A DNA stretch of 64,000 bases from Candidatus Doudnabacteria bacterium. Lineage in GTDB: Bacteria; Patescibacteriota; Doudnabacteria; UBA920. The notes under the pieces are model-generated. The model made no database searches. It had not been told where the DNA came from and saw nothing but the letters and a program-made list of their open reading frames with translations. This document shows, piece by piece, positions 1,006 through 54,058 of this stretch (position 1 is its first letter; each line of letters begins with the position of its first letter). Location: NCBI GenBank assembly GCA_963837465.1, contig CAWINB010000004.1, forward strand, positions 10,853 to 74,852, written 5' to 3'. Made by a program: the position numbers and the translations under genes.

Positions 1006-1014
1006 CCCGGGCGG

Positions 1015-5679: not shown

Positions 5680-5689
5680 GCCATTGAGG

Positions 5690-38854: not shown

Positions 38855-40141
38855 CTATCCGCCAGCGGCCATTTTTTGATGTTCCTTAAGTTTAATGTTT
38901 TTAAATACTGCTGACTTTGCTTCCTGCATAAGTTTTGCCCATCCGTTATGGCTGTGGCCGGTGCTGATGTCATCCAGTTGTTTTTCCGTCCGTCCTGGGG
39001 CAAGGTAGCGTGTCCAATTATCCAGAGTCTTCAGTTTGGCATAGGGAGTTAAGTAAATATCATATTTTTTCTTTTCCTTGCCCTTATGGTCAACCGTGGT
39101 GGTGGCAAAGCCGCAGGGTCTGTGGAAGTTCAGGTAAGGGTTAAAAAACTTCTGGTAAAATTCGTTAATCTCCTGCGCGTAGGTTTTCGGGATATGAGTG
39201 TAGCCCATATACTTTCTGATGACACTGCCGTTCTTGCTTTCCACTAAGGCATTGTCATTGCAGTGCCTGCTTCGTGATTTTGTCTGTTTAATAACTAACC
39301 TTCTAAGAATATCAGCTACCGTGTAATTAATGTTCTCGCTACCGTTGTCAGAGTGGAAGTTAATTACTGTAAAGGGAAACATTTGCTGCAACTGTTCAAA
39401 TATGGGTTTTAAATGCAGCTCGGAAATCGTTTCCACACAGAAGACCATTTCCCATTGGGTGACTTCATCCACCAGGTTTAAGTGGTAAATACCTTTCTCA
39501 TACTTGCCCAAAGCCAGCTTACGGTCGCCCTGATGCACGGTATCCACCCGCAGATAGCCCGGAATGCCCATATTGTCGGGTCTTCTTCTAATACCAATCG
39601 GGGTGCTTACTGGATCGGTTATGGTAAAGGTGGTGGAGTGGCTGGTGTAAATTCTTTTAACTCGCAGATTGTAGATATGGGAAACGGAAATATCTTTTAG
39701 TCTTTTAAACCGTTCGTCACCGAATATTTCATATTCAGCCATTAGGATCTGTTTGGTGGCATGGGCATTCATTCGTTGGTGCAGATTATCGGTTTCAGCC
39801 AGCAATAGTATTTCTGCCGGGCCATAAACAGTAACAAACCGGTTTTTCTTGCCCCAATTCGGGGACAAGGCCACTAACCCACTTCCTCTCTTGTTGGTAA
39901 TCAGTCGTTTTAGCTGTCTGCCCGACATGCCGGTCATCCGTTGGATATATTCCTTAATCTGCCCCTTGTCTTTTTTGCCTTTAAGCCGGACATAGCCAAA
40001 CTTGTTTAAGACGTTGTTAATCCATTCATATTTCTCCTTTCTGGAAACTGAGGTAAAATTAATTGCTGTATTGACCTTTAGAAATTCCTTGATTTGAGCT
40101 ATGCTCGTAACGCTTAAGTCTGTCATATCGATTGTCATCAA
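38855..40141 (-). CDS. DDE transposase, integrase catalytic core (IS481/ISNCY-like)
   Basis: FHSDNGSE and CNDNALVESKN motifs of the rve fold. 428 aa. Confidence 0.65.
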   Translation of the reverse strand: MMTIDMTDLSVTSIAQIKEFLKVNTAINFTSVSRKEKYEWINNVLNKFGYVRLKGKKDKGQIKEYIQRMTGMSGRQLKRLITNKRGSGLVALSPNWGKKNRFVTVYGPAEILLLAETDNLHQRMNAHATKQILMAEYEIFGDERFKRLKDISVSHIYNLRVKRIYTSHSTTFTITDPVSTPIGIRRRPDNMGIPGYLRVDTVHQGDRKLALGKYEKGIYHLNLVDEVTQWEMVFCVETISELHLKPIFEQLQQMFPFTVINFHSDNGSENINYTVADILRRLVIKQTKSRSRHCNDNALVESKNGSVIRKYMGYTHIPKTYAQEINEFYQKFFNPYLNFHRPCGFATTTVDHKGKEKKKYDIYLTPYAKLKTLDNWTRYLAPGRTEKQLDDISTGHSHNGWAKLMQEAKSAVFKNIKLKEHQKMAAGG

Positions 40142-40730: not shown

Positions 40731-40957
40731 TTATCCTAAAACCCCAATACCCTTAAACCCTTGAAAAAACTAGCTTCTTATGATAAAATTGCCTAAGTTG
40801 ACTGGGTTTGGGGTTTTTAAATCTTATTACAATCATCTACCATCTACGCCGAAACGTTCCCGGATAAAACATCGGCCAGGAAAAGGGAAATATTTTTAAA
40901 AAAGAGTTTTAAGGCACGGGAAAATATTTTGAAAAATTTATAAATATTTTCTTTTGC

Positions 40958-41032
40958 GGCGCTATCATCTAACGGTTAGGATAAGTGGTTTTCATCCACT
41001 AAATCGGGGTTCGACTCCCCGTAGCGCTACCA
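40958..41032 (+). tRNA. tRNA-Glu (anticodon TTC)
   Basis: Hand-folded cloverleaf. Acceptor GGCGCTA/TAGCGCT (one G-U). D-arm ATCT/GGAT with GG in the loop. Anticodon stem AGTGG/CCACT, loop TTTTCAT (U33, anticodon TTC, A37). T-arm CGGGG-TTCGACT-CCCCG. Discriminator A, encoded CCA. Confidence 0.8.
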
Positions 41033-41049
41033 AAGAAAATATTTATAAG

Positions 41050-41146
41050 CTAACGGTTAGGATAAGTGGTTTTTCCGCCGGAGGCGGACCCGCCTCCGGC
41101 GGGCATCCACTAAACCTGGGGTTCGATTCTCCGTACCGCTACCAAG
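41050..41146 (+). pseudogene. partial duplicate of tRNA-Glu (D-loop to 3' end) carrying a 30-nt palindromic insertion in the anticodon loop; probable att-site remnant
   Basis: TAACGGTTAGGATAAGTGG-TTTTT-[CCGCCGGAGGCGGACCCGCCTCCGGCGG]-GCAT-CCACT...GGTTCGATTCTCCGTACCGCTACCA. The 5' acceptor strand is absent. T-arm diverged from the intact copy 17 nt upstream. Confidence 0.65.
41074..41103. repeat. 30-nt GC-rich palindromic element, copy 1 (in pseudo-tRNA)
   Basis: TCCGCCGGAGGCGGACCCGCCTCCGGCGGG. 28/30 identical to copy 2 at 57030-57059. Confidence 0.8.
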
Positions 41147-42630
41147 ACCAAACTTTCAGACAATTTAGATTTATTTTCCAGGGCTGCCTTAAGGGCAGCC
41201 CATTGTGTCTGCGGGACAAATTCAATTTTTTGATTTTTTAAAAACAGGTTCGAACCGAAAATTTTTTGTGCAGCCGATTTTTTGGGGTGCAGTTCGGGCG
41301 AAAGCGTTATTTCGCCCAATTTTTCTGCGTCTTTGAGCCATTGCGTCAGGGGTTCAAACCAGGCAGCCCGCTTTTGTTCAAGACGAGCTATTTGCTCCTC
41401 CAAAGACTTCTTTTCCAAGACCAGGCCATTCTTCTGTTCCCGGTAGTTATCCCTCTCAATATCCTGGTCTAAATACATATCCTGAAGTCTTTGGAGCCTG
41501 TGGTCAATGTCCCCAATTTTTGACCGCAGCTCTTGAACAAAAGCCGCCGTGGATTGTGTTGATTCCTGCCGTTTTTTCTCGGCCATAATTAACAATTTTT
41601 CTGCCCAATCTTTGGGCATGACAAATTGCTTTAAAGTTTCTGAAAGCTTGCTGATTAATACCTCGTCCCTGACAAACGGCTGGGAGCAAACAACATTTCT
41701 TTTAGTGCAATGGTAATAGACATAACGGTGGATATTGCCATTTTTTTGTTGTTTAGTCCTTTGCTCGGCCGTAACCCCACGGCCGCATTCGCCACAGTGG
41801 AATAAACCACAGAGTAGCTGGGGATTATTTTTAGTTTCCTTATGCGGCCGACCCCGATAGGCTAAAACCTCTTGGACTTTATCAAACAATTGTTTGCTAA
41901 CAATCGGCTCGTGCTTACCTTGGTATAATTCTCCGCCAAAACGGAATAAGCCACAGTAGATAGGATTAGACAAAAGGTAGGAAATTTTATCCCGTTTGAA
42001 AAGCTTATTGCCTCTAGAAATTAATCCATGACTTTTAAAAAATTCCCCTATATCCTCCAAACGGGATTGATCTTTGGCGTACAGCTCGAAAGCGGCCTTA
42101 ACAATTAGGGTTTTTCTTTGGTCAATAGCTATTTTTTTAGTTCTTAAATCATTAATGTAGCCAATGGGAGCAAGTCCCGGATATTCGCCCCGTTTGGCTT
42201 TTTCGTGCATGCCACGTTTAGTGTTTGCGCTTAAGTCACGTACGTATTGGTTAGCTATTCCAAACTCCATTTGCATCATTAAAACATTATCAGCCGAGTA
42301 ATAGCTTTTATCATGGGTTTGAATGTGCTGGATTATACCCTCTTGCAACATCCAGCTAATTTGGGCGGCATCCACAGGATTGCGGGCTAACCTGTCCAGC
42401 TTCCAGCAAACTATGCCTTGAGCTTCACCTTTGTTAATGCGGACAAGCATATCAGTAAATACAGGGCGACCTGGTCTTTTGGCCGACTGTTTTTCAACAA
42501 ATTCGGAGGCAATATTTAAGCCCTGTTCTTTTGTTAAGGCCCTCAAAACAGCAAGCTGATCTTCAATAGACCGGACTTGCTTGTCTTCTACATCTGTGGA
42601 TTTACGGGCGTAGAGGAAATAATTTGGCAT
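41110..42630 (-). CDS. large serine recombinase no. 2
   Basis: Catalytic-Ser motif YARKSTDVEDKQ. Recombinase domain. Zinc ribbon CGLFHCGECG...YYHC. Coiled-coil. The last ~37 codons lie inside inverted repeat IR1, and the ORF runs into the pseudo-tRNA. Confidence 0.75.
   Translation of the reverse strand: MPNYFLYARKSTDVEDKQVRSIEDQLAVLRALTKEQGLNIASEFVEKQSAKRPGRPVFTDMLVRINKGEAQGIVCWKLDRLARNPVDAAQISWMLQEGIIQHIQTHDKSYYSADNVLMMQMEFGIANQYVRDLSANTKRGMHEKAKRGEYPGLAPIGYINDLRTKKIAIDQRKTLIVKAAFELYAKDQSRLEDIGEFFKSHGLISRGNKLFKRDKISYLLSNPIYCGLFRFGGELYQGKHEPIVSKQLFDKVQEVLAYRGRPHKETKNNPQLLCGLFHCGECGRGVTAEQRTKQQKNGNIHRYVYYHCTKRNVVCSQPFVRDEVLISKLSETLKQFVMPKDWAEKLLIMAEKKRQESTQSTAAFVQELRSKIGDIDHRLQRLQDMYLDQDIERDNYREQKNGLVLEKKSLEEQIARLEQKRAAWFEPLTQWLKDAEKLGEITLSPELHPKKSAAQKIFGSNLFLKNQKIEFVPQTQWAALKAALENKSKLSESLVLVAVRRIEPQV
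41140..41252. repeat. inverted repeat IR1, left copy (113 bp)
   Basis: taccaagaccaaactttcagacaattt...aaaaacaggttcg. Reverse-complement identical to 44463-44575. Confidence 0.85.
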
Positions 42631-42854
42631 AAATTTTACTCTTAAAAATTAAAGGGGCAGTCCTGGCTACCCAGCTCCACCAAAACGAGTTTGGATTTGC
42701 TGGCAGGACTGCCACCTCAATAGCAAAAGGGCAAAATAAAATCGCTTTGGGATATAGAACTGGGTAGCAAGGATATTATACCATATATAAAATTTTCAGC
42801 AATTATTTCAGTTAGTTTTTGGCAATTTCGTCCTAAAAAGAGTAAAATTTTAGC

Positions 42855-44375
42855 ATGAGTCTTTACGATAACTATAAACCACTAAGAAATAACCTAAGAC
42901 GGCTTGAACTTTTTGATTCACTGTACGTAATTTGGGCGTACGCCCAACATCTACAATTTGGCAATCCATTCCCAGACAATATTCAAGTATGGAATAAATT
43001 TGTAAATAATGCCACGGAAATGCCACGAGAGACGTACCTATCCCCTTGGGACTTAGAGACTTTAACACGCGAATTAATACTACACGCCCCTATTGGCAAC
43101 AACTTATCAGATAAAAGCTTGCGCAAATGGGATAATTTAGCTAATACAAAAAATAAATTCAGGGAACTAGAGAATCAAATAGGCGCAGAATTTGTGAATA
43201 AAGATAATATATTAATGGAAATGTTTCGAATTGCCCACCGGCAGTTTTTGTGGCAAATTCACCCAAGCCAAATTTATATGTACAGGTACTACAGAATTTT
43301 TGGTTCTGAGGAAATGGGAAAAATTGTAGAAAATAAACTGGGTGTCACTACATACAAATTACACCTCGTTGGTACGGCCCTATTGGGCCATTTTTTGGGA
43401 AGCAATATTTTACGTTACCCAATAAGGGTTGAAATTCCCAGCGTAAACGCTGACATGCTAAAAGAGGTAATAGCCTTAAGTTCTTCCGAATTAGAAAATA
43501 TACGGGAAAAACTTCAGGGAGAATCCACGTTGGATGAAAAATTTTCTTATGCAAATTACGCGTTACGGGCTCACCCACTTATCAAAACTAAAATTCAAGG
43601 TCAGGATGTACTAATTTGCCCATTGCCCACCCTTTTATATTGGCGGTATACTAGCGGGCTTTATTATGAACTTTACAATGAAAACGGGTTTGATAACGCT
43701 TTTGGTGGTTCATTCCAAAACTACGTTGGAGAAGTGCTCAGAAAAGCAAACCCCAACCAACAAGTTATCCCATCAATGAAATTTGATAAGACATCAAAAG
43801 AAACAATTGACTGGATTTTGTCTGAAGACGAATCGGCTTTATTCATTGAATGCAAAATGAAACGGTTGCCTGTTCCGGTCAAGATGGAGTTAAACAACAC
43901 TGGCCCGCTGGATGGACAACTGGACACAATAACAAATATAATTTTGCAAGTTTACAAAACTATTAAGGACTACAAAGAAAATAAATACCCAAATTTTCCA
44001 TACCAAAAAGATAGGGTTATATTCCCTTTAATTTTAACCTTGGAGGACTGGTACTGGTTTCCTGATGTCATAGAGGCAAAATTAAACACCATGCTTGAAG
44101 ACAAATTTAAAGCGAGCGGTATCCCTATAGAATGGCTGGACGAAATACCTTATTCACTTTGCTCAATAAATGAATTTGAGAACATGGCGCAAATTATTAA
44201 CAAAGTAGGTATTAAAAATTTTATGGACAAAAAGCTTACCAATAAAGAAAAGAGGCGCTGGCATTTTGGCCCGTTTATGGTTAAGGAATTTCCAAAAGAA
44301 TATTCTGCCAAAAAATTCTTGTTTGAAAAGGAATTTAACAATGAATTTCCAGTAAAGGGAAGCGATGTAGTCTAA
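42855..44375 (+). CDS. hypothetical 506-aa cytoplasmic protein with PD-(D/E)xK-like motif (candidate nuclease cargo)
   Basis: No signal peptide. The segment IDWILSEDESALFIECKMK fits D-x13-E-x-K spacing of the restriction-endonuclease-like fold. Otherwise unrecognised. Confidence 0.4.
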   Translation: MSLYDNYKPLRNNLRRLELFDSLYVIWAYAQHLQFGNPFPDNIQVWNKFVNNATEMPRETYLSPWDLETLTRELILHAPIGNNLSDKSLRKWDNLANTKNKFRELENQIGAEFVNKDNILMEMFRIAHRQFLWQIHPSQIYMYRYYRIFGSEEMGKIVENKLGVTTYKLHLVGTALLGHFLGSNILRYPIRVEIPSVNADMLKEVIALSSSELENIREKLQGESTLDEKFSYANYALRAHPLIKTKIQGQDVLICPLPTLLYWRYTSGLYYELYNENGFDNAFGGSFQNYVGEVLRKANPNQQVIPSMKFDKTSKETIDWILSEDESALFIECKMKRLPVPVKMELNNTGPLDGQLDTITNIILQVYKTIKDYKENKYPNFPYQKDRVIFPLILTLEDWYWFPDVIEAKLNTMLEDKFKASGIPIEWLDEIPYSLCSINEFENMAQIINKVGIKNFMDKKLTNKEKRRWHFGPFMVKEFPKEYSAKKFLFEKEFNNEFPVKGSDVV

Positions 44376-44462
44376 AGCCACGCGGTGGGTTGGGTGGGTC
44401 AAGTGGCTTTGCGTTTTGGTGTTAATTGCGTTCTGCGGCCCCCAAAAAATCTTCCCTGTTCC

Positions 44463-44575
44463 CGAACCTGTTTTTAAAAAATCAAAAAATTGAATTTGTC
44501 CCGCAGACACAATGGGCTGCCCTTAAGGCAGCCCTGGAAAATAAATCTAAATTGTCTGAAAGTTTGGTCTTGGTA
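44463..44575. repeat. inverted repeat IR1, right copy (113 bp)
   Basis: cgaacctgtttttaaaaaatcaaaaaattgaatttgtcccgcagacacaatgggctgcccttaaggcagccctggaaaataaatctaaattgtctgaaagtttggtcttggta. Exact reverse complement of 41140-41252 as far as I can align by eye. Confidence 0.85.
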
Positions 44576-44934
44576 CCTTTATTCGATATTTTACAAACCT
44601 ATTATACCCAAAACAGCTAATTTTGGCCACCCAATTTAGCCTGTTTTAGCTGCCAAAATTAGCCAGCTAGGTGGTAGAACGGGTAGTAGAACAGGGTTCT
44701 ACCACTAAAACTCATAAACCCCTTGATTCTATTGACTCTGTCCCAAACAAAAACCGCGGACTACCTACCACCAGGTAATCAACTGAACGACCAATACTAC
44801 TACTAACTCTAATACTAAAATACCTTAAAAATACTACTCAAAATACATAAATCTTAACCAACTAACTAAACTAATCTAAACCAAAACACAAAAAACATCA
44901 AAACCTAAAAATCAATACAAAAGGGTGTGGGGGG
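44572..44934. repeat. inverted repeat IR2, left copy (~362 bp), contiguous with IR1 right copy
   Basis: ggtacctttattcgatattttacaaacc...aaaagggtgtggggg. Reverse complement of 50620-50981 with at least one mismatch (T/C at ~44676). Confidence 0.8.
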
Positions 44935-45015
44935 TTATACGTCTAAAACCCCAAGGAAACAAAAAAGGATTGTTAAATTAGCGCCAAACGATTTATCATC
45001 AACATAGAAAAAACT

Positions 45016-45036
45016 ATCCATTGCTGGATAGTTTTT
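45016..45036 (-). terminator. hairpin CTATCCA-ttgc-TGGATAG with A-run/T-run flanks (bidirectional)
   Basis: Perfect 7-bp stem, 40 nt 3' of the giant gene stop. Confidence 0.5.
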
Positions 45037-45072
45037 TCTTACGCGCTCAAGCGAGACGTTTTTATTCTTTTG

Positions 45073-48000
45073 TTATCTTAAGTTGTTAATAAAACTTCTG
45101 GTTAGAGTGTCTAGTGCCCCATTATCGGCCTTAATCCCAATTTGCGTTTTGTACTTGTTTTGGAAACTCTTTAAAGCTGCTTTAGTCGCAAGGCCAAACA
45201 AAGTAGTTTCGTGTCCAGGAGAACCAATTGCTCCATTTGGGGCAACAGCGAAGTTATTATTGTTTAAGAACTGCTGCAAAGCCGTAACGTCCACCCCTTT
45301 GCTTAAGTAGCCAAGGTTTCGGGTAAAGATTATGGTGGCAGGAATGAGGCCAGTAGATTGGTTAGTTGCGGCCGGAGCTGGACTGGACAGAGCGGTTTGG
45401 CCCAGGACCTGGCTGGCTGTTTCTGACTCTATGGTATACGGGGCTTTGGAGCCTCTTAGTACAGTTAATTTCTCCCCACTTTGGCTTTGATATTGCTGGA
45501 AGCTCAAGAAAGTATCAAAAGGATATAAGCCATTAGGCTTAACCAGGTAGATAGTCGGGTTGCCTTTAAACTGTAATAGCTGGCCATCGTGGACATTGTA
45601 TGGTAGGACTACGGTAACAGAGGGTGATATATTGGTTGTTGGTGGAGTTGGTAATATTAGGTATGGAATGGATGTCGGAGTCGAAGTTGGCGATGGTGCC
45701 ACAGTTCCTGCCAAGGTCAGGGTGGTGAATGTATAATCTCCGGAAACATTAAACTGTAAGTTAGGGTCTTTAACCCTAAAATGGTACAAAGTGGCCGGGT
45801 TTAGGCTGGTTAAGATAAGGCTATGGCTTGTTGCGGGTGTAGAACTAGAAACAGTTGAACCGTAAGAGGAGGTTGTGCCATAGTCTACAGAGGAGCCAAT
45901 TTGATAATTGGTTTGCCAGGACACAATTATTGAAGTAGGTGTTGTATTGGAAACCTGGACGTTGCTGAAACTGGCATAAATAGCACCTCCGCCTCCGCCG
46001 GAACTCACTACATTCGTGGAGCAGGATACGGACACATTGGTAATGTTAGATGAGGCTACCGTACCGCTGCCATTAGTTACGTTACAGGTTTGGCCTGATG
46101 GCTGAGTTAAAACCGTAACATTGTATGTGCCGCCGGTGCTGGTGGCTGTGGCGAAAATAAAGCTAGTATTAGTTGTAGTGCTTATATTATTTCCGCCATT
46201 ATTCTGTAAAACAACAGTCCCAGTTAAGCCAGAAATATTACCGCCAATTGTGTAGGTAGGATTATTGGAACACGAAACTGAAACGTTGCTCACGTTCGCG
46301 GAAGATACTGTGCCACTACCATTGGTGACACTACAGGTTTGACCGCTAGGCTGGGTCAAAACAGTTACAGAATAACTGGCACTATTGTTTAAAGCTGTGG
46401 CAAAAATAAATGAGCCATTGGTGGAAGTGCTGTAGTTATCTCCCCCGTTATCCTGGAGGACCACGGTGCCGGACAGGCCAGAAATGGTGCCACCGATGGT
46501 GTAGGTTGTAGAAGAAGATTGATAAGCGCCAATATCGGGGGATGAACTGTAAAGGACTTGAGTACCGCTAGAATTTTTATAGAGATAAACCGGATTTCCC
46601 GAAGACCTAGTTATTGGACTAGCCAATGTTATAACATTGGTTGAATAATTAATTGAGGAGATTTGTACTGTAGTGGCTGAGCCTACCCTAATCCAGTCGG
46701 CATTTACTATCCCTGAACCATCGGAAAAGAACCCGGCGTCATTAACAACCAACGAAGTTCCAGAGCCTGTGTCAGAGTTCGCTACTGTTGTAAGGTAAGT
46801 TCCAGCGCCGCGGGCTGGGGAAGAATTTTGCAGTTGAAAATTCCCTGATGGTGGAGTGGCTACGTTTGTCAAAAGTGGATCTTGGTTAAGTACAACTCCT
46901 GATTCTGAAGACAAACTGCTCTGCCATGAGCCAGAATAGCCTTGGTTAAAAACAAGTGTGTTACCACTAATTGTAGGCGAAGAGCTGGCATCAGTTAAAA
47001 TATCATAATATCCATTTACAATATCGTTGTACAGAAGATTATTAAGCCACGCCCCACCGGTAGCTCCTACTCCAGGCATATAGTTCCAAGAAGCTGTATA
47101 GTCTGGTGGTAAGACTGTATTAATAATATCATTATTATAAACTTTTGATTGTGGTATGCCCTGACTAAGTACGAAGTAACCACCGCTTCCATAATAGGTA
47201 TTAAATCTGGTAATTACTCCTGTTGGATTATCAACAGTTGGAGTCTCGGCCTGTAGTAAAGAAAAATGAGTATTGTACTCAGGGGTGTTATACATGACGT
47301 TATTCTCCATCAGCAGATGAATTAATGGCGTCCCTGTAACGTCCCATGTTTGCATTCCGTCAAGATGGGCGGTTGTTGTCGCCGCATATGAATATGTTCC
47401 AGTAGTTCCGGCAAATGGGGTATAAAGAGTCAAGGATGTGCTACTGCTTATTGATAAAATAGAATATACAAGGCTACCAATTGAAATTGCGTATACATTA
47501 CCACCAGCCCAACTGGAATCAAATACTGTTCCCGATGCCCATGTGACTGTAGTGCTGCCATTAGTAACATTCACAGTACCCATGGTTGAAACAAAATCTG
47601 TGCTGGCGCTATCATGCCAAGTATTATTGCGCAACACATCGTAAGAGCCATGAACATGCGTGTAATCTAAAACATGCGAAATATCGTTTGAGTCAATCAA
47701 ATTATAGTTTCCATATACATCAATTCCATATGTACCGGACGCGTTATACCCTGCCCAAGAAATTGTGTTGTTGGAAATTGTACAGTAATTCGAATTATTG
47801 CTTGGGTTATACGGCGATTGGTTAAATCCTACACCAAATCCTCCGGTATAGCTTATAATATTATTGCTGACAATGACGTGTGATGCGGCGATAAGCTGTA
47901 CACCTCTCAACCCAGCCGCATTATGATTACCAATATAAAATCCTTGAATTGCAATATAATTTTGGCCTGACACTACAAAAGCATTAACTAGCACGGTGTC

Positions 48001-50040
48001 TCCGGTATGGGCTTGAAAAACAATAGGGTTACCCGAAATACCCGAGGCAGGAACACTGACTGTCTCTGAATATGTGCCCGCGTAAACCGTGCAGGTGTCT
48101 CCTGCTAAAGCAGCATTCGCACACGCCTGAATTGTTGTAAAATCACCTCCACCGGCTGATTTAACAGCGTACATAATGCCGCTTGGGGTTGCCTGACTTT
48201 GCATTGTATAGGCAGCCTTGTTGCCAGCCTCATCTTTGACCACAACATTAAAGTAATAGGTCGTAGATGGATACAAACCTGTCACGTTGAATGTGCTGAT
48301 GTTTTGGGTAAACGACTGAATAATACTACCATTTGTTTCGGCATTAGCTACTGTACTAATGTTACTACTGGTAGATTCAATAACTTCATACTGGAGGTTG
48401 GCTTGCAGCGAAACATTGTCCGTAGCCGCTGTCCAGTTAAGAGTAAGGCTGTGAGCCGCGACACTAGCTGCGCTGATTGCCCCGCTACTGCCCGGGACAG
48501 GTGGGGTGGTATCTGGCGCAGTAGTGGTAAAGGTTAAGTCCGTAGATGTAGCAACGTTACCCGAAGAATCAGAAGAAGCTACCTGAAAATGATAAAGGGT
48601 ACTTGTAGCCAGGCCAGTTAAAGTTATGGAGTGAGAAGTCACAAATGAGGCCGATGATGAAGCTGTTCCGTAACCGGAGGTTAGCCCATAATTAACTGTA
48701 GATGTTGCGCTTTCGTCAGTAGTCCAAGTTATAATGGCAGTAGTTTGAGTTGTTGATGAGGCTATAGAAGAAATTACGGGAGGGGTGACGTCGGCGCTTG
48801 TTTGACCGATGTAAGACAAAAGCATACGAGTAGATTGCGGCGTACTGGAAGGAGTGACTTGAGTATCATACAATGCTCCATTTGTGGGAGTAAATGAGCC
48901 TGAGGCCGATCCAGTAGTTGTCGCTGCGCCGGATATGCTAATTGGAAAAGTGGTTGAAGCATTGCCACCGTTCTCGCGCAATACAGTGGCCCAAGATTTA
49001 GTGTTACCTGGGGCACCAATAACTTTGGCATAAAGACCTACTAGGTTGTAGTCGGACCAGCCAAGTGTTTGTGTTTGAGTTTCAGTGGCTGAAATTGTGT
49101 TTGTGCCTGATAATCCTAAGTAATTAACAGCCGAATTTGAAGGCGTAGTATTGGCGATGGGAATGATAAAATCCCCGGTGGTGTTTGGAACGAAAACTAA
49201 ACCAAAAGCTCCTTGAGCAGAAGTAGGGGTACCGGAGGCTGTTTGGACAATATCTATAAGATCGCCTGGTACGACCGACACATTATCACCGGAATTTGTG
49301 TCCGAGAGAACGCCAGTACTGGCGGCATTAAATGTCGTAGCTAAAGTTGTGGTCGCTCCATTTTTTCTCAGAGCAAAAGACTCGCCATTACCAGAGCCAG
49401 GAGCAGCGGATAAGTAAGTGTATAAATGTTCCAAAGTCCCGGTCGCCGGAACTACAATTTGAACATTGCCCTCTGTCGCACTACCTGCAACACCTACTAA
49501 ACCATAGTATGTCGTGCTTGTAGCAAAATTTCCGCCTGTTCCTGACATAAGCACGGTCTCGCCAGCAGTTGTCGGAAGGAAATCCAACATGAACGAAACG
49601 CGCGCACCAGTAGCAGGAGTTCCACTTGGTGTAACTGAGACCGAGACTCGGTTACCGGCTGTAATGTTCACAGTGTCGTTTGTATCGGAACAACTTGTTG
49701 CCAAATCACTTATCGTGCAAGTTAAAGCCGTATTTGCAAGTTCATCGCGAAAAGTTATAACATAAGATTTGCCGGTACCTGGAGCAGTGTCAAGTTGCAC
49801 ACGTAATTTCTGTACAGTTCCGCTAGACGGAGCAATCTGATAAGCATTGATTTCAGCGTTCTGCGGGGGAAGAGCCCCAAAAGGAGAAAAATAGCGAACT
49901 GCTCCGGTACTAGTCTGGCCATCATATGACCCAAACCATTTAGACGGCAAACTGGCTGCCGAGGCTTTACCGACAAAGCTAAAAGCACACACCACAAAAA
50001 ATGCCAGTAAGGTTAATTTGTTGTTTAAAAATTTAGTCAT
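45073..50040 (-). CDS. giant (1655 aa) secreted surface protein: FN3 domains, right-handed beta-helix region, tandem ~80-aa repeats, C-terminal repeat module and peptidoglycan-binding (PG_binding_1-like) domain
   Basis: Signal peptide MTKFLNNKLTLLAFFVVCAFSFVGKASA. FN3-like IITWTTDESATSTVNYG...LYHFQV and IIVSWQTNYQIGSSVDYG...LYHFRV. Beta-helix repeats NNIISYTGGFGVGFN...ISNNTISWAG...IDSNDISH. Duplicated YTIGG.ISGL.GTVVLQ.NGG.N.ST.TN.SFIFATA modules. C-terminal LQQFLNNNNFAVAPNGAIGSPGHETTLFGLATKAALKSFQ. Confidence 0.65.
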   Translation of the reverse strand: MTKFLNNKLTLLAFFVVCAFSFVGKASAASLPSKWFGSYDGQTSTGAVRYFSPFGALPPQNAEINAYQIAPSSGTVQKLRVQLDTAPGTGKSYVITFRDELANTALTCTISDLATSCSDTNDTVNITAGNRVSVSVTPSGTPATGARVSFMLDFLPTTAGETVLMSGTGGNFATSTTYYGLVGVAGSATEGNVQIVVPATGTLEHLYTYLSAAPGSGNGESFALRKNGATTTLATTFNAASTGVLSDTNSGDNVSVVPGDLIDIVQTASGTPTSAQGAFGLVFVPNTTGDFIIPIANTTPSNSAVNYLGLSGTNTISATETQTQTLGWSDYNLVGLYAKVIGAPGNTKSWATVLRENGGNASTTFPISISGAATTTGSASGSFTPTNGALYDTQVTPSSTPQSTRMLLSYIGQTSADVTPPVISSIASSTTQTTAIITWTTDESATSTVNYGLTSGYGTASSSASFVTSHSITLTGLATSTLYHFQVASSDSSGNVATSTDLTFTTTAPDTTPPVPGSSGAISAASVAAHSLTLNWTAATDNVSLQANLQYEVIESTSSNISTVANAETNGSIIQSFTQNISTFNVTGLYPSTTYYFNVVVKDEAGNKAAYTMQSQATPSGIMYAVKSAGGGDFTTIQACANAALAGDTCTVYAGTYSETVSVPASGISGNPIVFQAHTGDTVLVNAFVVSGQNYIAIQGFYIGNHNAAGLRGVQLIAASHVIVSNNIISYTGGFGVGFNQSPYNPSNNSNYCTISNNTISWAGYNASGTYGIDVYGNYNLIDSNDISHVLDYTHVHGSYDVLRNNTWHDSASTDFVSTMGTVNVTNGSTTVTWASGTVFDSSWAGGNVYAISIGSLVYSILSISSSTSLTLYTPFAGTTGTYSYAATTTAHLDGMQTWDVTGTPLIHLLMENNVMYNTPEYNTHFSLLQAETPTVDNPTGVITRFNTYYGSGGYFVLSQGIPQSKVYNNDIINTVLPPDYTASWNYMPGVGATGGAWLNNLLYNDIVNGYYDILTDASSSPTISGNTLVFNQGYSGSWQSSLSSESGVVLNQDPLLTNVATPPSGNFQLQNSSPARGAGTYLTTVANSDTGSGTSLVVNDAGFFSDGSGIVNADWIRVGSATTVQISSINYSTNVITLASPITRSSGNPVYLYKNSSGTQVLYSSSPDIGAYQSSSTTYTIGGTISGLSGTVVLQDNGGDNYSTSTNGSFIFATALNNSASYSVTVLTQPSGQTCSVTNGSGTVSSANVSNVSVSCSNNPTYTIGGNISGLTGTVVLQNNGGNNISTTTNTSFIFATATSTGGTYNVTVLTQPSGQTCNVTNGSGTVASSNITNVSVSCSTNVVSSGGGGGAIYASFSNVQVSNTTPTSIIVSWQTNYQIGSSVDYGTTSSYGSTVSSSTPATSHSLILTSLNPATLYHFRVKDPNLQFNVSGDYTFTTLTLAGTVAPSPTSTPTSIPYLILPTPPTTNISPSVTVVLPYNVHDGQLLQFKGNPTIYLVKPNGLYPFDTFLSFQQYQSQSGEKLTVLRGSKAPYTIESETASQVLGQTALSSPAPAATNQSTGLIPATIIFTRNLGYLSKGVDVTALQQFLNNNNFAVAPNGAIGSPGHETTLFGLATKAALKSFQNKYKTQIGIKADNGALDTLTRSFINNLR

Positions 50041-50130
50041 CGTAAAAGTAAAAAATAAAAAGCGCCGTCAAAAACGGAGCTTAAATAAAAATATTAAGTT
50101 TGTATAATCGCAAAACTGGCGAGCGTGTTT

Positions 50131-50148
50131 TACTCTCTCTCTCTCTCG
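50131..50148. repeat. dinucleotide microsatellite (CT)8 about 90 nt upstream of the giant gene start
   Basis: tactctctctctctctcg in the 5' region shared by the giant gene and ORF 50176..50478. Confidence 0.8.
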
Positions 50149-50175
50149 TTGTCAGCTTTTAAAATTTTAGGCATT

Positions 50176-50478
50176 TTAGTTTTTTTCTGGTAGCCGCCGT
50201 AAGGCTTGGGATGTAATTTCTTCTAGGGTGTCGGCCGGTACTGGCTTGCCAAGTATTCTTTCAGCTAGTTCCAGCATTTTGTTTAAACTTGGTTGACTTT
50301 TAAATTTATTCGCTATAATTTCCTGAGCGCCTTCTTGGGCAGGGGTTTTATCCTCAGCAGTTATTCTGGATAGATGAAGCATTGTGACATAGGCGGATAA
50401 AAGTCTTGCACATTCTTCCAGATAAGCCTGGTTATCTTCCGGCCTGCGAACCAATTCTAGCCTCTTAGGATAATCCAT
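50176..50478 (-). CDS. hypothetical 100-aa protein, co-oriented upstream of the giant gene
   Basis: Intact helical-looking ORF (MDYPKRLELVRRPEDNQAYLEE...). No known motif. Confidence 0.3.
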   Translation of the reverse strand: MDYPKRLELVRRPEDNQAYLEECARLLSAYVTMLHLSRITAEDKTPAQEGAQEIIANKFKSQPSLNKMLELAERILGKPVPADTLEEITSQALRRLPEKN

Positions 50479-50619
50479 AATTACTACAACTATTTATACA
50501 AATATTATACTATAGTTTACGATTAAAGACCAGCATTTAATAGCTAAGGGTATTATGGTATAGTGTTTTGGTAATTTGGTCAGTATTTTTGGTCTTTGTT
50601 TCCTGTTTTCTGTCTTCCA

Positions 50620-50981
50620 CCCCCACACCCTTTTGTATTGATTTTTAGGTTTTGATGTTTTTTGTGTTTTGGTTTAGATTAGTTTAGTTAGTTGGTTAAG
50701 ATTTATGTATTTTGAGTAGTATTTTTAAGGTATTTTAGTATTAGAGTTAGTAGTAGTATTGGTCGTTCAGTTGATTACCTGGTGGTAGGTAGTCCGCGGT
50801 TTTTGTTTGGGACAGAGTCAATAGAATCAAGGGGTTTATGAGTTTTAGTGGTAGAACCCTGTTCTGCTACCCGTTCTACCACCTAGCTGGCTAATTTTGG
50901 CAGCTAAAACAGGCTAAATTGGGTGGCCAAAATTAGCTGTTTTGGGTATAATAGGTTTGTAAAATATCGAATAAAGGTACC
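50620..50981. repeat. inverted repeat IR2, right copy (~362 bp)
   Basis: cccccacacccttttgtattgatttttagg...ggtttgtaaaatatcgaataaaggtacc. Reverse complement of 44572-44934. Confidence 0.8.
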
Positions 50982-51336
50982 AAAAAAAATGCCTATAAAT
51001 TAAAAATACCGGACTCATTCCGGTATTTTTAATTACCCGGGCAACAACCTTTGGGTCAAAATCAATAATCCATTGAATACCGCATTTGTCTCTAAACATT
51101 CCAAGATATAAAATTTAAAGGTTCCTATAAAATTTAAAGGTTCCTGACACCTTTGAATTCCTCCTTACATGAATGGTTGTCAGCCGTGCCAGAATTAGCA
51201 AATTGTATTCTTTTAAAAAATAAACAGCGTCCATGGATTAGTAAAAATAATTTGCCGAATGATAACTTCGACAAAATTTTTACAGAATAGCTAGTTGGGG
51301 GCAGTTATTATAAAAACCAATTTTTTATAGAGCGAC

Positions 51337-51594
51337 TCACTCCTCTCCTAATAATTTTTCTAATTCAGAAACTATATCCTCAATTAGATCGCTATCAGAC
51401 CGTTTAGCTAGCCTGTCTGCCAAAGTAGGGCTATATTTAGCCATATCGTCTTTTGTAATATTGTGCCAAACAGGTAATACTACTTTTCTGCCATTTCTCT
51501 CTTGAGCAACCAAGCCATTTAACTCATATTCTGTCCATTGTTTCTTTGTCAAAAAAGCTTTAGAAAAAACGACAATCCCATAAGTAGAATTTTT
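51337..51594 (-). pseudogene. 3' fragment of a TIR-domain-like protein gene
   Basis: VVLPVWHNITKDDMAKYSPTLADRLAK resembles the conserved C-terminal half of TIR domains. The ORF opens only 14 codons upstream of a TTG and lacks the N-terminal half. Confidence 0.3.
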
Positions 51595-51717
51595 TCAACC
51601 ACTGTGCACTGGAAGTGCACAGACTGGTCGCCGACTGGAAGTCGAGAACAGCGAAGGAATTATCTATTATTTTTTACTGAAGTGACCGCCTGAAGGCGTG
51701 GGAACTCACCGCCCCAA

Positions 51718-51903
51718 ATGGAGGCCTTAGAAGGTCAAGGCATTATGCATATAGATTCAGAATCAGCTCCAGTCCATCCTGGGCAGGCAATTTATATTCC
51801 ACCAAGCTCCAAACGATATATTGAAAATAACGGTAAGGCTGATTTAAAATTTTTATGTATTGTCGACCCTGCATGGAGAGTTGAGGATGAAGAGGTGCTT
51901 TAA
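51718..51903 (+). pseudogene. cupin-barrel fragment
   Basis: GQAIYIPPSSKRYIENNGKADLKFLCIV is a typical cupin_2 C-terminal strand pattern. Only 61 aa. Confidence 0.3.
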
Positions 51904-51960
51904 CCCAAAGTAGACTGGAAAACCTTTCCAGCTTAAAAATAACAGTTTTCCAAAAGCACC

Positions 51961-53379
51961 TTGCTCAAGCAAATAAATCTGGAAAACTTTTTTGTTTTAA
52001 ATATAACCAAATTGGAGTATAATATAAAAAACTCATGTTTTATGAACAAACTTTTTTCTCAAAACCCAACTGCTGAAAGCCAAAATTCAGATCAGTCTAT
52101 TAAGAAACCCATGATTCCTTGGGCCATATTGATTTTAGTAGTTTTGGCAGTAATTGGTTCCTTTGTTTACATACAGGGTAGAACAAACCCAAATCAAAGT
52201 AACAAAATTGCAAACAAAAATATTTTCCAAAATAATACAACTGAGAAAAATTCCTCCGCCAATATTTCCAAAAATAAGGAATTCAGCCCCACAAAGGTAT
52301 TAGTGACCACCGACTCAGAAATAGCACTTTATGACATACTGGCTCAAAAAATAATTGCTTCCACAACTGAGCCAAATGCTTTTTCTAACGTAGCCGGATC
52401 CAGTGCCGCAATACAATATAATGATAAAACCGGAGATATTTTTTATTTTATTGCAGGCGGTGTGGACTATGATGGAACATGTGATCCCGGCGGCACTTGT
52501 ACCAACGGATTATATAAGACAAATATTTATACCCATAAAACAAGTTTTTTATGGCGGACAGCGGATTGGCCGCCAAGCCAATGGGTTATTGATACAAATA
52601 ATAACTCAGTACTTGTTGGATTTGGGTTAGGCAGCAACCTTGAATCTACCAGCACCGTACGATCAATCTTAGATATTATGAAAATTGATGCCGAGAATGG
52701 GGCAACTTCAACAATTTTTAGCCAAACCTTTCCCGGTAATACTGGGTTTGGAAGTTTCGCTTTATCAAACGATGGCACGAAACTGTATATGACGGCTATA
52801 CAAGATTTTTTTAATCCACGGAGTCCCACCGAATTAAGCGCCAATTATTTAGATTTAACAAGTAATAAACTTTACGGGTTGGCTAAAATCACGGCTTCGT
52901 CTTTAAATGATATCCTCGATATGTCTGCGTCATATTATTCCTACGACGACAAATACCTACTTTATTTTAATAATAGTATTAACCCTATTATTTTAGATAT
53001 TAACAATTTAAAGAATATCCCAATCAATGGCATACCATACGCTGATTTGCTTAACGCCAGTTTTGTATGGGCTACTGACAATGCCGGATTATATTATAGC
53101 AATGATACTGTAATTTCTGGCGACAAACAGATGCGTTATTATTCCTTGGCGACTCAAAGCAGCTCAACTTTAGCATTTCTTCCACCCTATCAAACAGAAC
53201 CCATTGCGGCATCGGACAAATATTTGTTTTACACAGCATATGTGTCGGCGAAGACAAATGGAACTCATTATAATGAATGGGAAACAAAGGGTTATGATTT
53301 AGCCAATAACAGAGATCTTGATTTATCAAATTTTCCCATGTCGACCGATCCGCCAGGAATCACTTTTGTAAATGATTAA
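51961..53379 (+). CDS. hypothetical membrane-anchored extracellular protein, very AT-rich (possibly beta-propeller)
   Basis: TM helix IPWAILILVVLAVIGSFVYI. Repeated beta-rich segments. Composition much lower in GC than the surrounding genes. Confidence 0.4.
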   Translation: MLKQINLENFFVLNITKLEYNIKNSCFMNKLFSQNPTAESQNSDQSIKKPMIPWAILILVVLAVIGSFVYIQGRTNPNQSNKIANKNIFQNNTTEKNSSANISKNKEFSPTKVLVTTDSEIALYDILAQKIIASTTEPNAFSNVAGSSAAIQYNDKTGDIFYFIAGGVDYDGTCDPGGTCTNGLYKTNIYTHKTSFLWRTADWPPSQWVIDTNNNSVLVGFGLGSNLESTSTVRSILDIMKIDAENGATSTIFSQTFPGNTGFGSFALSNDGTKLYMTAIQDFFNPRSPTELSANYLDLTSNKLYGLAKITASSLNDILDMSASYYSYDDKYLLYFNNSINPIILDINNLKNIPINGIPYADLLNASFVWATDNAGLYYSNDTVISGDKQMRYYSLATQSSSTLAFLPPYQTEPIAASDKYLFYTAYVSAKTNGTHYNEWETKGYDLANNRDLDLSNFPMSTDPPGITFVND

Positions 53380-53460
53380 CATGGGCAAGTTTTGTGATTT
53401 AAGCATTCGCCATAGAAGAATGTAAAATTAGGGGGTTATTTAGTGAATTATAAATCTCCC

Positions 53461-53922
53461 TTACAAGAGCCAAATAAGTTTTCCACCTGTCTCGAGGTGC
53501 GCTACCAAATTAGATTTTTTTCCTCCGTACTCCTTGTTTATCTTATAGACTTGCGGTAATTTGGCGGTTCCAAACTTCTTACCGTCAAACTTTATTTTTT
53601 CTTTGAATATCATTTTCTGGAAACGTAATCGTGCAGGATAATCAGCTTCATTCCACGTTTTTGCTGTGGTTCTAACATACTCAAAACAATAGCTTAAAGA
53701 TTCCTCCATATTAAACTCTTCAACCCTGCTCTCTTGCACGAGCAGGCGTTTTGCGCCTATGGCAGAATTTATTTTATTTTTCTGGTCTAAAAATTCTTCA
53801 TCTGAATATTTACCGCTTCTATGAAAATCAAAAACTTTTTGTCGTTCCTGTTCCAGCTTGGTGGTGTTTTTGTTTCTGTCGGCAGCTGTTTTTATTTCTT
53901 TTCTCAGGCAATCGACAGGTTT
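53461..53922 (-). CDS. hypothetical protein (open frame extends upstream of the listed GTG start to a stop at 53923-53925); possible recombinase C-terminal remnant
   Basis: Hand translation shows no stop between 53739 and 53922. Lys/Glu-rich coiled-coil-like N-part. Assignment uncertain. Confidence 0.2.
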   Translation of the reverse strand, partial: KPVDCLRKEIKTAADRNKNTTKLEQERQKVFDFHRSGKYSDEEFLDQKNKINSAIGAKRLLVQESRVEEFNMEESLSYCFEYVRTTAKTWNEADYPARLRFQKMIFKEKIKFDGKKFGTAKLPQVYKINKEYGGKKSNLVAHLETGGKLIWLL

Positions 53923-54058
53923 TTATTCTCAAATCAGGCTTCTGTTTACACAATTGAGCCGTATAGTGTAAAATATAATCTCCTCGGTTAGTTCCTGTCT
54001 TGCGGGATGGCCCAAGTTGTGTTGTTAATAAAATAATAATTAATAATTAGCCTTAAAT

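What the first reader, a model, noticed from the sequence alone, without database searches (positions are those of the whole stretch)
40958..41146. Intact tRNA-Glu followed 17 nt later by a 3' partial copy, overlapped by the recombinase gene end
The second copy reproduces the D-loop to CCA end (TAACGGTTAGGATAAGTGG...CCACT...GGTTCGATTCTCCGTACCGCTACCA) but lacks the 5' acceptor strand. IR1 starts at the TACCA end of this copy. The recombinase ORF terminates inside it. This is the classic signature of an element integrated at the 3' end of a tRNA gene (attL/attR duplication). Here the two copies are adjacent rather than flanking the element, so the other boundary is unresolved.
Basis: partly seen in the sequence, partly recalled or inferred. 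Interest (0 to 1): 0.55.

Follow-up and report, generated by a model that had tools for sequence, protein, structure and literature searches.

The report
Serine-recombinase island at a dead tRNA copy
A 9.8-kb mobile element driven by a large serine recombinase sits at the 3' tip of a dead, duplicated tRNA-Glu copy; it belongs to a large family in CPR (ultra-small, uncultured) bacteria, for which I found no published description, that targets tRNA ends and has its attachment site inside its own recombinase gene.

Summary
There is an intact tRNA-Glu(UUC) at 40958-41032, a 17-nt spacer, and a 5'-truncated copy at 41050-41144. A large serine recombinase (LSR) gene ends inside that copy.

An element is integrated at a tRNA 3' end, but the two adjacent tRNA copies are not its attL/attR repeat. 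They come from an older ~81-nt tandem duplication. The 17-nt spacer is homologous (12/17) to the sequence now found 9.8 kb away, beyond the element.

The unresolved far boundary is at 50983. There, an inverted copy of the recombinase's own 3' coding tail abuts TACCAA and a host terminator. TACCAA also marks the left junction at 41140.

In 51 of 53 related CPR loci the LSR stop region overlaps the 3' end of a tRNA, a tmRNA or a tRNA-like T-arm. About 10 loci show the same far junction. Each element also carries a second, inverted copy of its attachment region, which creates the 113-nt and 364-nt inverted repeats. The role of that copy is unexplained.

The tandem tRNA is ordinary. I found no description of the element family.

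The parts
40958..41032 (+). Intact tRNA-Glu (anticodon UUC), CCA encoded
   Evidence: ARAGORN; Rfam tRNA model 59.7 bits.
40938..41048 (+). 17-nt leader (40938-40954) and 17-nt trailer (41032-41048) are perfectly complementary and extend the acceptor stem of the intact tRNA. Function unknown.
   Evidence: Inverted repeat I3; minimum free energy -40.5 kcal/mol.
41033..41049 (+). 17-nt spacer, the trailer of the intact tRNA. It is homologous to the host flank at 50983-50999.
   Evidence: 12/17 identities at the fixed register; background 4e-4 over all 17-mers, 3e-3 over AT-rich 17-mers.
41050..41144 (+). 5'-truncated tRNA-Glu pseudogene (tRNA position ~12 to CCA). It supplies the tRNA-side half of the host attachment site (attB).
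   Evidence: alignment; 16.1 bits versus gathering score 29; no ARAGORN call.
41074..41103 (.). 30-nt GC-rich palindrome inserted in the anticodon loop of the pseudogene. It is a member of a small dispersed palindrome family.
   Evidence: Alignment; -29.3 kcal/mol for 41070-41108; second copy at 57032-57059, and copies in L016 and L054.
41140..41145 (+). attL core TACCAA (tRNA positions 72-73, CCA, plus 1 nt). The crossover dinucleotide lies within it.
   Evidence: Same hexamer at 50978-50983. The minimal shared core across loci is positions 72-74.
41140..41252 (-). Arm A: the last ~37 codons of the recombinase gene, forming the left arm of inverted repeat 1.
   Evidence: 113 nt, 100% complementary to 44463-44575. 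Equivalent arms occur in 48 related loci, median 156 nt and 94.9% identity.
41110..42630 (-). Large serine recombinase, 506 aa. Its last 9 codons are read from the antisense strand of the tRNA pseudogene.
   Evidence: Pfam PF00239, PF07508, PF13408; NCBIfam nearest families CcrB/CcrC/XisF, all below cut-off; more than 4600 homologs.
42855..44375 (+). Cargo ORF2, 506 aa. A distant GapS1-like candidate antiphage protein with an E-x-K nuclease-like motif.
   Evidence: NCBIfam NF047931, 3.3e-19, below cut-off; weak DUF4143 match; no PADLOC hit.
44463..44575 (+). Arm B: inverted copy of arm A. Perfect identity begins at an internal CGAACC motif.
44576..44620 (+). Native recombinase tail (PLFDILQTYYTQNS*), in frame with arm B. 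Arm B plus this tail form an intact internal copy of the element's attachment site (attP).
   Evidence: The same tail type ends about 15 of 120 homologous proteins.
44570..44933 (+). Left arm of inverted repeat 2 (tail plus region R). It includes a direct-direct-inverted repeat motif at 44670-44706.
   Evidence: 364 nt, 99.7% identical to 50983-50620.
45073..50478 (-). Segment S2 cargo: a 1655-aa surface-type protein (fn3, PG_binding; 45073-50040) and a 100-aa ORF (50176-50478).
   Evidence: In relatives S2 carries Replic_Relax and TrwB-like coupling proteins.
50620..50983 (-). Right arm of inverted repeat 2: region R plus the native tail in antisense, ending at the attR core TACCAA (50978-50983).
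50984..51034 (+). Host flank: the original trailer of the tRNA copy, with an intrinsic-terminator-like hairpin at 50998-51034.
   Evidence: -18.8 kcal/mol; trailer homology. Terminator-like hairpins follow the attR core in about 5 relatives (L036, L037, L044, L065, L076).

Best explanation
A ~9.8-kb integrative element (41140-50983) is inserted between the CCA end and the trailer and terminator of a 5'-truncated, non-functional tRNA-Glu copy. That copy arose earlier by an ~81-nt tandem duplication (tRNA position ~12 through trailer nt 17), which left the upstream gene intact.

The element encodes a large serine recombinase (LSR). Its attachment site (attP) lies inside the last ~15 codons of its own gene: the 'arm' (C-terminal coding DNA), the crossover at tRNA positions 72-74, then the 'tail' (native last 14-16 codons, consensus xLYxxARTYFxxN*).

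Integration joins the arm to the tRNA end (attL), so the LSR ORF now finishes in antisense tRNA. The tail is sent to the far end of the element (attR, 50978-50983).

The element also carries a second, inverted, intact copy of arm + tail + R (44463-44933). This copy produces the 113-nt and 364-nt inverted repeats and splits the element into two segments: S1 (LSR plus defence-type cargo) and S2.

Shown: the sequence anatomy, the family-wide pattern and the junctions. Inferred: the crossover position, the order of events, and that the LSR catalyses the reaction. Unknown: what the second attP copy does.
For: LSR domains.

Right junction: antisense tail + TACCAA + A-rich trailer + terminator hairpin. 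The left junction has the same TACCAA.

The trailer at the right junction is homologous to the 17-nt spacer after the intact tRNA: 12/17 identities, background 0.3%. This shows that the partial copy and this flank were once contiguous, and that the duplication came before insertion.

Family pattern in 53 CPR genome loci with a complete LSR 3' end: 43 have an intact convergent tRNA overlapping the stop region, 8 more have a T-arm-type target (one confirmed tmRNA, L009; five probable intron-bearing tRNAs, by eye; L010; one partial tRNA), and 2 have none.

Inverted arms occur in 48 loci. About 10 loci show the same attR structure: antisense tail, then 3-8 nt matching tRNA positions 71/72-74, then a host flank that is a terminator-like hairpin in about 5 of them.

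The detached tail keeps the LSR reading frame, a conserved R-T-Y/H-F core, and in 29 of 39 loci a stop after 14-16 codons. The same tail ends about 15 of 120 homologous proteins. Their nearest relatives (80-94% identity) carry tRNA-derived tails, and identity stops at about residue 497.

The motif TCGAACC lies 4 nt further from the crossover in the tail than in the tRNA. This resembles the 5-bp zinc-ribbon-domain motif shift between attP and attB described by Rutherford et al. 2013 (PMC3783163).

The architecture is present in chromosome-level assemblies (L011, L028).
Against: No empty attB, no circular junction and no close relative of this genome was found. Integration is therefore inferred from anatomy and family comparison only.

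The shared core is only 6 nt.

The motif shift is 4 bp, not 5. The arm half-site shows no clear symmetry with the tail half-site.

If both attP copies were equivalent, about half of integrated elements should keep the native tail. Almost all genome loci show the tRNA tail, and this is unexplained.

L082 is a composite with two LSR-type units only 74% identical. It does not fit a simple circle.

Whether S2 (the 1655-aa gene) is true cargo rests only on the flanking repeat.
Confidence: 0.8

Rival explanations
1. One reading: the partial tRNA copy is the att duplication made when this element integrated, with attL and attR unusually adjacent.
For: The partial copy is a 3' tRNA segment next to a recombinase gene, as in classical tRNA islands.
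Against: The recombinase is a serine integrase. The element's two ends share only TACCAA. In 43 of 53 relatives the element abuts a single intact tRNA with no partial copy. The duplicated unit includes trailer sequence now separated by the element.
Confidence: 0.04
2. The partial copy is the displaced 3' fragment left by an older, now deleted, tyrosine-integrase island. The LSR element later used that fragment as its target.
For: Intact tRNA plus a nearby 3' fragment is the usual scar of such islands (general knowledge; Islander, PMC4383910). tRNA fragments also occur near other occupied tRNAs: L016, L018, L062, L072.
Against: Such a scar would give the rebuilt tRNA an island-derived trailer. 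Here the trailer of the intact gene is homologous to the flank of the fragment, as a simple tandem duplication predicts. Only 17 nt separate the copies, and no integrase remnant is present.
Confidence: 0.1
3. The mobile unit is only the 3.4-kb segment bounded by the 113-nt inverted repeats (41140-44575), an IS-like element with terminal inverted repeats. The 364-nt repeat pair is unrelated.
For: Perfect 113-nt terminal inverted repeats enclose the LSR and one cargo gene. Many contigs break near the distal arm.
Against: The ~45 nt outside arm B is conserved across genomes and completes the LSR reading frame, so it belongs to the element. Its inverted copy ends at the tRNA-derived core next to the host trailer, in the window and in about 10 relatives.
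Confidence: 0.08
4. The repeats define invertible segments. The LSR or RecA flips S1 and S2, switching the LSR between a tRNA-derived tail and its native tail as a regulatory switch. This complements the integration model rather than replacing it.
For: Arms are 83-100% identical within elements (21 of 48 at 97% or more), although LSR proteins of different elements are only 44-65% identical to the window's LSR. This suggests ongoing exchange between the arms. Native-tailed LSRs are followed by co-directional genes in L082 and by convergent genes in L083.
Against: No single element was seen in both orientations. LSRs are not known to recombine attL with attP (PMC3783163). Native-tailed proteins could simply come from excised or tandem elements.
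Confidence: 0.3
5. The second copy is a functional unusual tRNA: split, intron-containing or otherwise non-canonical.
For: The insertion sits in the anticodon loop, where tRNA introns occur. Some CPR tRNAs targeted by this family appear to carry group-I-intron-like inserts.
Against: There is no 5' acceptor strand in the window. The insert is a 30-nt palindrome, not an intron, and the same palindrome sits inside a protein gene. The T-stem is weakened. Scores are sub-threshold.
Confidence: 0.02

Closest known systems
Large serine integrases of phages and integrative elements (phiC31, Bxb1, A118/LI, SprA, CcrAB, XisF, TnpX)
   Same: Same three-domain architecture. The nearest named families are CcrB/CcrC/XisF. 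The att sites share only a short core. A motif is repeated in the attP and attB half-sites at shifted spacing.
   Different: The target is the 3' end of tRNA or tmRNA genes, of many identities. attP lies inside the recombinase's own last codons, so integration rewrites its C-terminus. A second inverted attP copy is carried. No candidate directionality factor was identified.
SSV1-type archaeal tyrosine integrases (attP inside the int gene, integration into tRNA genes; reviewed in PMC8371274)
   Same: The attachment site is within the recombinase ORF. The target is a tRNA gene. Integration changes the recombinase gene.
   Different: A different enzyme superfamily (tyrosine versus serine). SSV1 splits int into two large parts, whereas here only about 15 C-terminal codons are swapped. 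Bacterial (CPR) rather than archaeal viral.
Classical tRNA/tmRNA genomic islands with tyrosine integrases (Islander/TIGER type, PMC4383910)
   Same: Integration at tRNA or tmRNA genes, cargo of defence genes, and tRNA fragments nearby.
   Different: Those islands are bounded by an intact tRNA and a displaced 3' fragment tens of nucleotides long. Here the ends share 3-8 nt and the tRNA is not rebuilt.
Integration-dependent immunity of mycobacteriophages (attP inside the repressor gene; from my own knowledge, Broussard et al. 2013)
   Same: Integration replaces the 3' end of a gene that spans attP, producing a protein with a different C-terminus.
   Different: There the gene is a repressor and the integrase is a tyrosine recombinase. 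A functional consequence is shown there and not here.
Yeast 2-micron plasmid FLP/FRT, and Hin/Gin invertible segments
   Same: Recombination sites are embedded in inverted repeats that split the element into invertible unique segments, and the recombinase is encoded inside.
   Different: Inversion has not been shown here. The enzyme is a large serine integrase. The repeats contain the recombinase's own 3' coding sequence.

Membership tests
Large serine recombinase / serine integrase | N-terminal resolvase catalytic domain with a serine nucleophile | tested here: met
   PF00239, 2.6e-22, residues 5-149. The motif YARKSTD, with invariant R9, K10, S11 and T12 in a 29-sequence alignment.
Large serine recombinase / serine integrase | Recombinase domain followed by a zinc-ribbon domain | tested here: met
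   PF07508 6.7e-15 and PF13408 8.9e-8, both above cut-off.
Large serine recombinase / serine integrase | Coiled-coil insertion in the zinc-ribbon domain that controls directionality | not tested
   Residues ~340-430 look heptad-rich by eye. No prediction was run.
Large serine recombinase / serine integrase | Element ends share only a short core around a 2-bp crossover, with no long direct repeat | tested here: met
   TACCAA at both ends of the window element. Cores of 3-8 nt in about 10 relatives.
Large serine recombinase / serine integrase | Catalyses attP x attB recombination | not testable with these tools
   Needs a recombination assay.
Classical tRNA-integrating genomic island (tyrosine integrase) | Tyrosine integrase next to the tRNA | tested here: not met
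   The recombinase is of the serine type.
Classical tRNA-integrating genomic island (tyrosine integrase) | Island bounded by an intact tRNA and a displaced 3' tRNA fragment as direct repeats | tested here: not met
   The fragment lies 17 nt from the intact gene, on the same side of the element. The far end carries only TACCAA.
Invertible DNA segment (inverton) | Segment flanked by inverted repeats, with a recombinase encoded in or beside it | tested here: met
   113-nt (100%) and 364-nt (99.7%) inverted repeat pairs.
Invertible DNA segment (inverton) | Both orientations present for the same element | tested here: inconclusive
   Native-tailed and tRNA-tailed LSRs exist, but in different elements. 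No read data were available.
SSV1-type 'attP inside the recombinase gene' design | The recombinase ORF spans attP, so integration alters it | tested here: met
   Arm B plus the tail keeps the LSR reading frame in the relatives, with a stop after 14-16 codons in 29 of 39 loci. Native-tailed homologs exist.
SSV1-type 'attP inside the recombinase gene' design | Tyrosine recombinase of the SSV family | tested here: not met
   Serine recombinase.
Functional tRNA (for the partial copy) | Complete cloverleaf with a paired acceptor stem, scoring above model thresholds | tested here: not met
   16.1 bits versus gathering score 29. No ARAGORN call. No 5' strand in the window.

The most novel reading that the evidence does not exclude
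CPR/Patescibacteria host a very large, apparently undescribed family of integrative, partly mobilisable elements. Their large serine integrase uses the near-universal tRNA/tmRNA 3' end (T-arm, acceptor, discriminator-CCA) as attB. Its attP is embedded in its own stop-proximal codons. Two inverted attP-region copies make the element a four-isomer, 2-micron-like structure. Integration or segment inversion swaps the integrase C-terminus between a conserved native peptide and tRNA-antisense-encoded residues. This would act as a built-in switch of recombinase activity or directionality in place of a separate directionality factor.
Probability: 0.35. Interest if true: 0.8.

Novelty: new variant of a known kind. 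Interest (0 to 1): 0.6.

Why it matters
Serine integrases are prized genome-engineering tools, and they are not generally known to target tRNA genes.

A family that recognises the conserved tRNA 3' end would be a new source of integrases with near-universal landing sites. Close relatives (~90% identical) sit at different tRNAs.

The family also shows a design not seen in serine systems as far as I could find: the attachment site lies inside the recombinase gene, and a second inverted copy of it is carried. This may bear on how directionality is controlled without a separate directionality factor.

It also documents defence-gene and mobilisation-gene traffic in CPR bacteria, whose mobile elements are poorly charted.

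For the window itself, the practical result is a corrected annotation: one functional tRNA-Glu, one pseudogene, and a delimited 9.8-kb island.

Tried and rejected
- **Exact-protein look-ups** of the LSR, ORF2, P0001 and P0014 found no contig on record.
- **Viral contigs scan** found no close LSR relative (best 32% identity), so a phage origin is not supported.
- **Metagenome scan** with the tRNA-Glu 3' end gave 120 tRNA-Glu loci. None was an empty site or a relative of the window's flanks. It did show natural intact alleles matching each copy's acceptor strand (L130, L156).
- **Six literature searches** found no description of this family.
- **Split or intron-containing tRNA** was rejected.
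- **A 3.4-kb IS-like element with terminal inverted repeats** was rejected once the conserved tail outside arm B and the second repeat pair were found.
- **L082 as a circle assembled for more than one turn** was rejected: its two units are only 74% identical.
- **The palindrome as a terminator** was rejected by reading the sequence: no U-tract follows it on either strand.
- **The promoter/terminator scan** was uninformative.
- **PADLOC** gave nothing for the cargo genes.

Full report
**1. What is at the coordinates**

The window holds one callable tRNA, tRNA-Glu(UUC), at 40958-41032 (ARAGORN; Rfam 59.7 bits). Seventeen nucleotides later (41033-41049) a second copy begins at about tRNA position 12 and runs to the encoded CCA (41050-41144).

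This copy lacks the 5' acceptor strand, and no such strand exists elsewhere in the window.

The copy also has a 1-nt indel and several substitutions that weaken the T-stem.

It scores 16.1 bits against the tRNA covariance model, where the gathering score is 29. ARAGORN does not call it, even with introns allowed or with the palindrome removed. It is a pseudogene.

The ORF at 41110-42630 on the minus strand is a large serine recombinase (LSR), with Resolvase, Recombinase and Zn_ribbon_recom domains. Its last nine codons (AVRRIEPQV*) are read from the antisense strand of the pseudogene.

A 113-nt perfect inverted repeat starts at the TACCA of the pseudogene (41140-41252 / 44463-44575).

**2. The recombinase family always ends in a tRNA**

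The LSR has more than 4600 homologs, almost all from Patescibacteria/CPR assemblies. One is identical and lies on an 868-kb contig that also carries a 66%-identical paralog.

About two thirds of the best 120 homologs have C-terminal tails such as GIEPTT or GFEPAT, which are translations of antisense T-arms.

I examined 53 genome loci where the LSR 3' end and 60 nt beyond are present:
- 43 have an intact, convergent tRNA overlapping the stop region. The tRNAs include Glu, Thr, Leu, Arg, Gln, Val, Ser, Gly, Phe, Tyr, Lys and Asn.
- 8 more have a T-arm-type target. L009 is a confirmed tmRNA (114.9 bits). L011, L024, L039, L041 and L048 look by eye like tRNAs with group-I-intron-like inserts, which Rfam did not confirm. 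L010 has a target like L009's. L016 is a partial tRNA.
- 2 have none.

LSRs that are about 90% identical sit at different tRNAs. Target choice is therefore relaxed with respect to tRNA identity.

**3. Anatomy of the element and the missing boundary**

Nearly every locus has an inverted repeat. One arm is the LSR 3' coding end, reaching into the last ~5 nt of the tRNA. The other arm lies upstream of the LSR (48 loci, median 156 nt, median 94.9% identity, ten perfect).

The ~45 nt outside the distal arm is conserved between genomes. Read in the LSR frame, it encodes xLYxxARTYFxxN followed by a stop; the stop falls after 14-16 codons in 29 of 39 loci. The window version is PLFDILQTYYTQNS*.

The same tail ends about 15 of 120 database homologs. 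Their nearest relatives (80-94% identity) have tRNA-derived tails, and similarity stops at about residue 497.

So arm plus tail is the native 3' end of the gene, and the junction between them is the crossover region. In other words, attP lies inside the recombinase ORF.

In the window, tail + region R (44570-44933) has an inverted copy at 50620-50983 (364 nt, 99.7%). That copy ends ...CGAATAAAGG-TACCAA-AAAAAATGCC..., followed by a terminator-like hairpin.

This is the attR expected for integration: antisense tail, the same TACCAA as at 41140, then host trailer.

About ten relatives show the same structure, with 3-8 nt matching tRNA positions 71/72 to 74 and beyond, followed by host flank; in about five of them (L036, L037, L044, L065, L076) the flank is a terminator-like hairpin. 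The smallest shared cores (CAC in L028, TCAC in L037) place the crossover at positions 72-74.

The element is therefore 41140-50983, about 9.8 kb. Its layout is:
- attL;
- arm A and the LSR (minus strand);
- ORF2, a distant GapS1-like candidate defence gene;
- arm B + tail + R, an intact inverted internal attP copy;
- a 1655-aa surface-type protein and a 100-aa ORF;
- R + tail in antisense;
- attR.

In relatives the first segment carries restriction-modification or AAA_15-type genes. The second segment often carries Replic_Relax and TrwB-like coupling proteins. The family therefore looks like integrative mobilisable elements.

The architecture is present in chromosome-level assemblies (L011, L028), so it is not an assembly artefact.

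**4. Why two tRNA copies sit side by side**

The 17-nt spacer after the intact tRNA (AAGAAAATATTTATAAG) matches the 17 nt after the CCA at attR (AAAAAAATGCCTATAAA) at 12 of 17 positions, at the register fixed by the CCA. Such a match occurs in 0.04% of all 17-mers in the window and 0.3% of AT-rich ones.

A single ~81-nt tandem duplication of [tRNA position ~12 ... trailer nt 17] reproduces the observed order exactly: intact gene, 17-nt spacer, 5'-truncated copy, trailer, terminator.

The duplicated unit includes trailer sequence that now lies 9.8 kb away. The duplication must therefore have happened while the copy and its trailer were contiguous, before the element inserted.

The tandem pair is thus not an att duplication. 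The element landed at the 3' end of the dead copy, which still offers the T-arm, acceptor and CCA half-site.

The decay of the copy (palindrome insertion, point changes) may have come before or after the insertion.

A scar from an older tyrosine-integrase island is less likely, because that would not give homologous trailers.

An analogous pair occurs at L016: an intact tRNA-Val, the same palindrome family, and a partial copy under the LSR end. tRNA fragments lie upstream of occupied tRNAs in L018, L062 and L072. These were not explained.

**5. Mechanism: shown and inferred**

Shown by sequence: the junction structures, the reading-frame continuity of arm and tail, and the family-wide target.

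Inferred:
- The LSR recombines attP (arm|tail) with attB (tRNA 3' end|trailer) at a dinucleotide within positions 72-74.
- Integration swaps the last ~15 codons of the LSR for tRNA-antisense codons.
- The native form is restored on excision.

The motif TCGAACC lies at +14 to +20 in the tRNA half-site and at +18 to +24 in the tail half-site. This is reminiscent of the 5-bp outward shift of the zinc-ribbon-domain motif in attP relative to attB (PMC3783163). It is suggestive only, because the shift here is 4 bp.

Unexplained:
- The purpose of the second inverted attP copy.
- The near absence of native-tailed LSRs among integrated genome loci.
- A recurrent ~10-nt insertion in arm B just 5' of an internal TCGAACC, where perfect identity between the arms begins.

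Identity between arms within an element (83-100%) is high, whereas the LSR proteins of the different elements are only 44-65% identical to the window's LSR. This suggests ongoing exchange or inversion between the arms. No element was seen in both orientations.

**6. Comparison with known systems and novelty**

The enzyme meets the domain definition of large serine integrases. The short shared core fits their chemistry.

Unusual features for serine systems are the tRNA/tmRNA 3'-end target, the attP inside the recombinase ORF, and the duplicated inverted attP region. An attP inside the recombinase ORF is otherwise known for SSV1-type tyrosine integrases.

Six full-text searches found no description of this family. 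The library is incomplete, so prior description cannot be excluded.

**7. Verdict**

- Observation: confirmed.
- Interpretation: partly supported.
- The tandem tRNA is an ordinary duplication remnant.
- The element is a new variant of a known kind, a serine-integrase integrative element, with an architecture worth experimental follow-up.

Noticed in passing
window 57032-57059 (and 41075-41102; L016 4396-4423; L054 11924-11951): The same 28-nt perfect palindrome, CCGCCGGAGGCGGAnCCGCCTCCGGCGG, is inserted in frame inside an EngB/YsxC-like GTPase ORF (56809-57423). There it encodes SAGGGSASGG between conserved motifs. This resembles Rickettsia palindromic elements, which insert into genes. None was expected by chance in shuffles.
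   Followed up: partly
window 40938-40954 / 41032-41048: A perfect 17-nt leader/trailer complementarity extends the acceptor stem of the intact tRNA-Glu (minimum free energy -40.5 kcal/mol). It could be a processing signal or a by-product of a local AT-rich repeat (GAAAATATTT occurs three times at 40878-41048). Unexplained.
   Followed up: no
window 44670-44706 and its inverted copy near 50850-50885; analogous sites in L011, L016, L018, L022, L023, L024, L028, L082, L083: Downstream of the native tail, every element has two direct repeats followed by an inverted copy (window: GGTGGTAGAAC GGGTAGTAGAAC AGG GTTCTACCAC). The sequence differs between elements but the layout is kept. Candidates are an operator, an origin of transfer (oriT) or an RNA hairpin.
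   Followed up: no
L011, L024, L039, L041, L048 (next to the LSR 3' end): The target tRNAs appear to carry long inserts with group-I-intron-like sequence (…AGATA(T/C)AGTC…) ahead of a normal T-arm and acceptor end. ARAGORN misses them, and Rfam did not call them at gathering threshold.
   Followed up: partly
L015, L016, L023, L024, L026, L035, L041, L046, L061, L064; window 44443-44462: The distal arm carries a recurrent ~9-11-nt insertion (TTTGAATTTT-like; 5 nt in the window) immediately 5' of an internal TCGAACC, the codons for the conserved FGSNL. Perfect identity between the arms starts exactly there.
   Followed up: partly
L082 (13.6 kb), L023, L003, L065, L028: Relatives carry Replic_Relax and two TrwB-like coupling-protein genes between the inverted tails, with a remnant in L028. 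This suggests conjugative mobilisation modules in CPR bacteria. L082 holds two LSR-type units only 74% identical.
   Followed up: partly
window 38855-40141 (-): An IS3/IS481-like rve transposase ORF, scoring below family cut-offs, lies 0.8 kb left of the tRNA. The locus is therefore a general hotspot for mobile DNA.
   Followed up: no
window 1-6000 versus 50000-54000: GC content ranges from 0.69 in the first 2 kb to 0.365 at 50-54 kb, within one 64-kb window. The low-GC stretch right of attR contains a 472-aa ORF with no Pfam hit and may be another island.
   Followed up: no
L016 4300-4530; L018, L062, L072: Partial tRNA copies recur beside LSR-occupied tRNAs, often with GC-rich hairpins at the fragment borders. 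L016 mirrors the window: an intact tRNA-Val, the palindrome, and a partial copy under the LSR end.
   Followed up: partly
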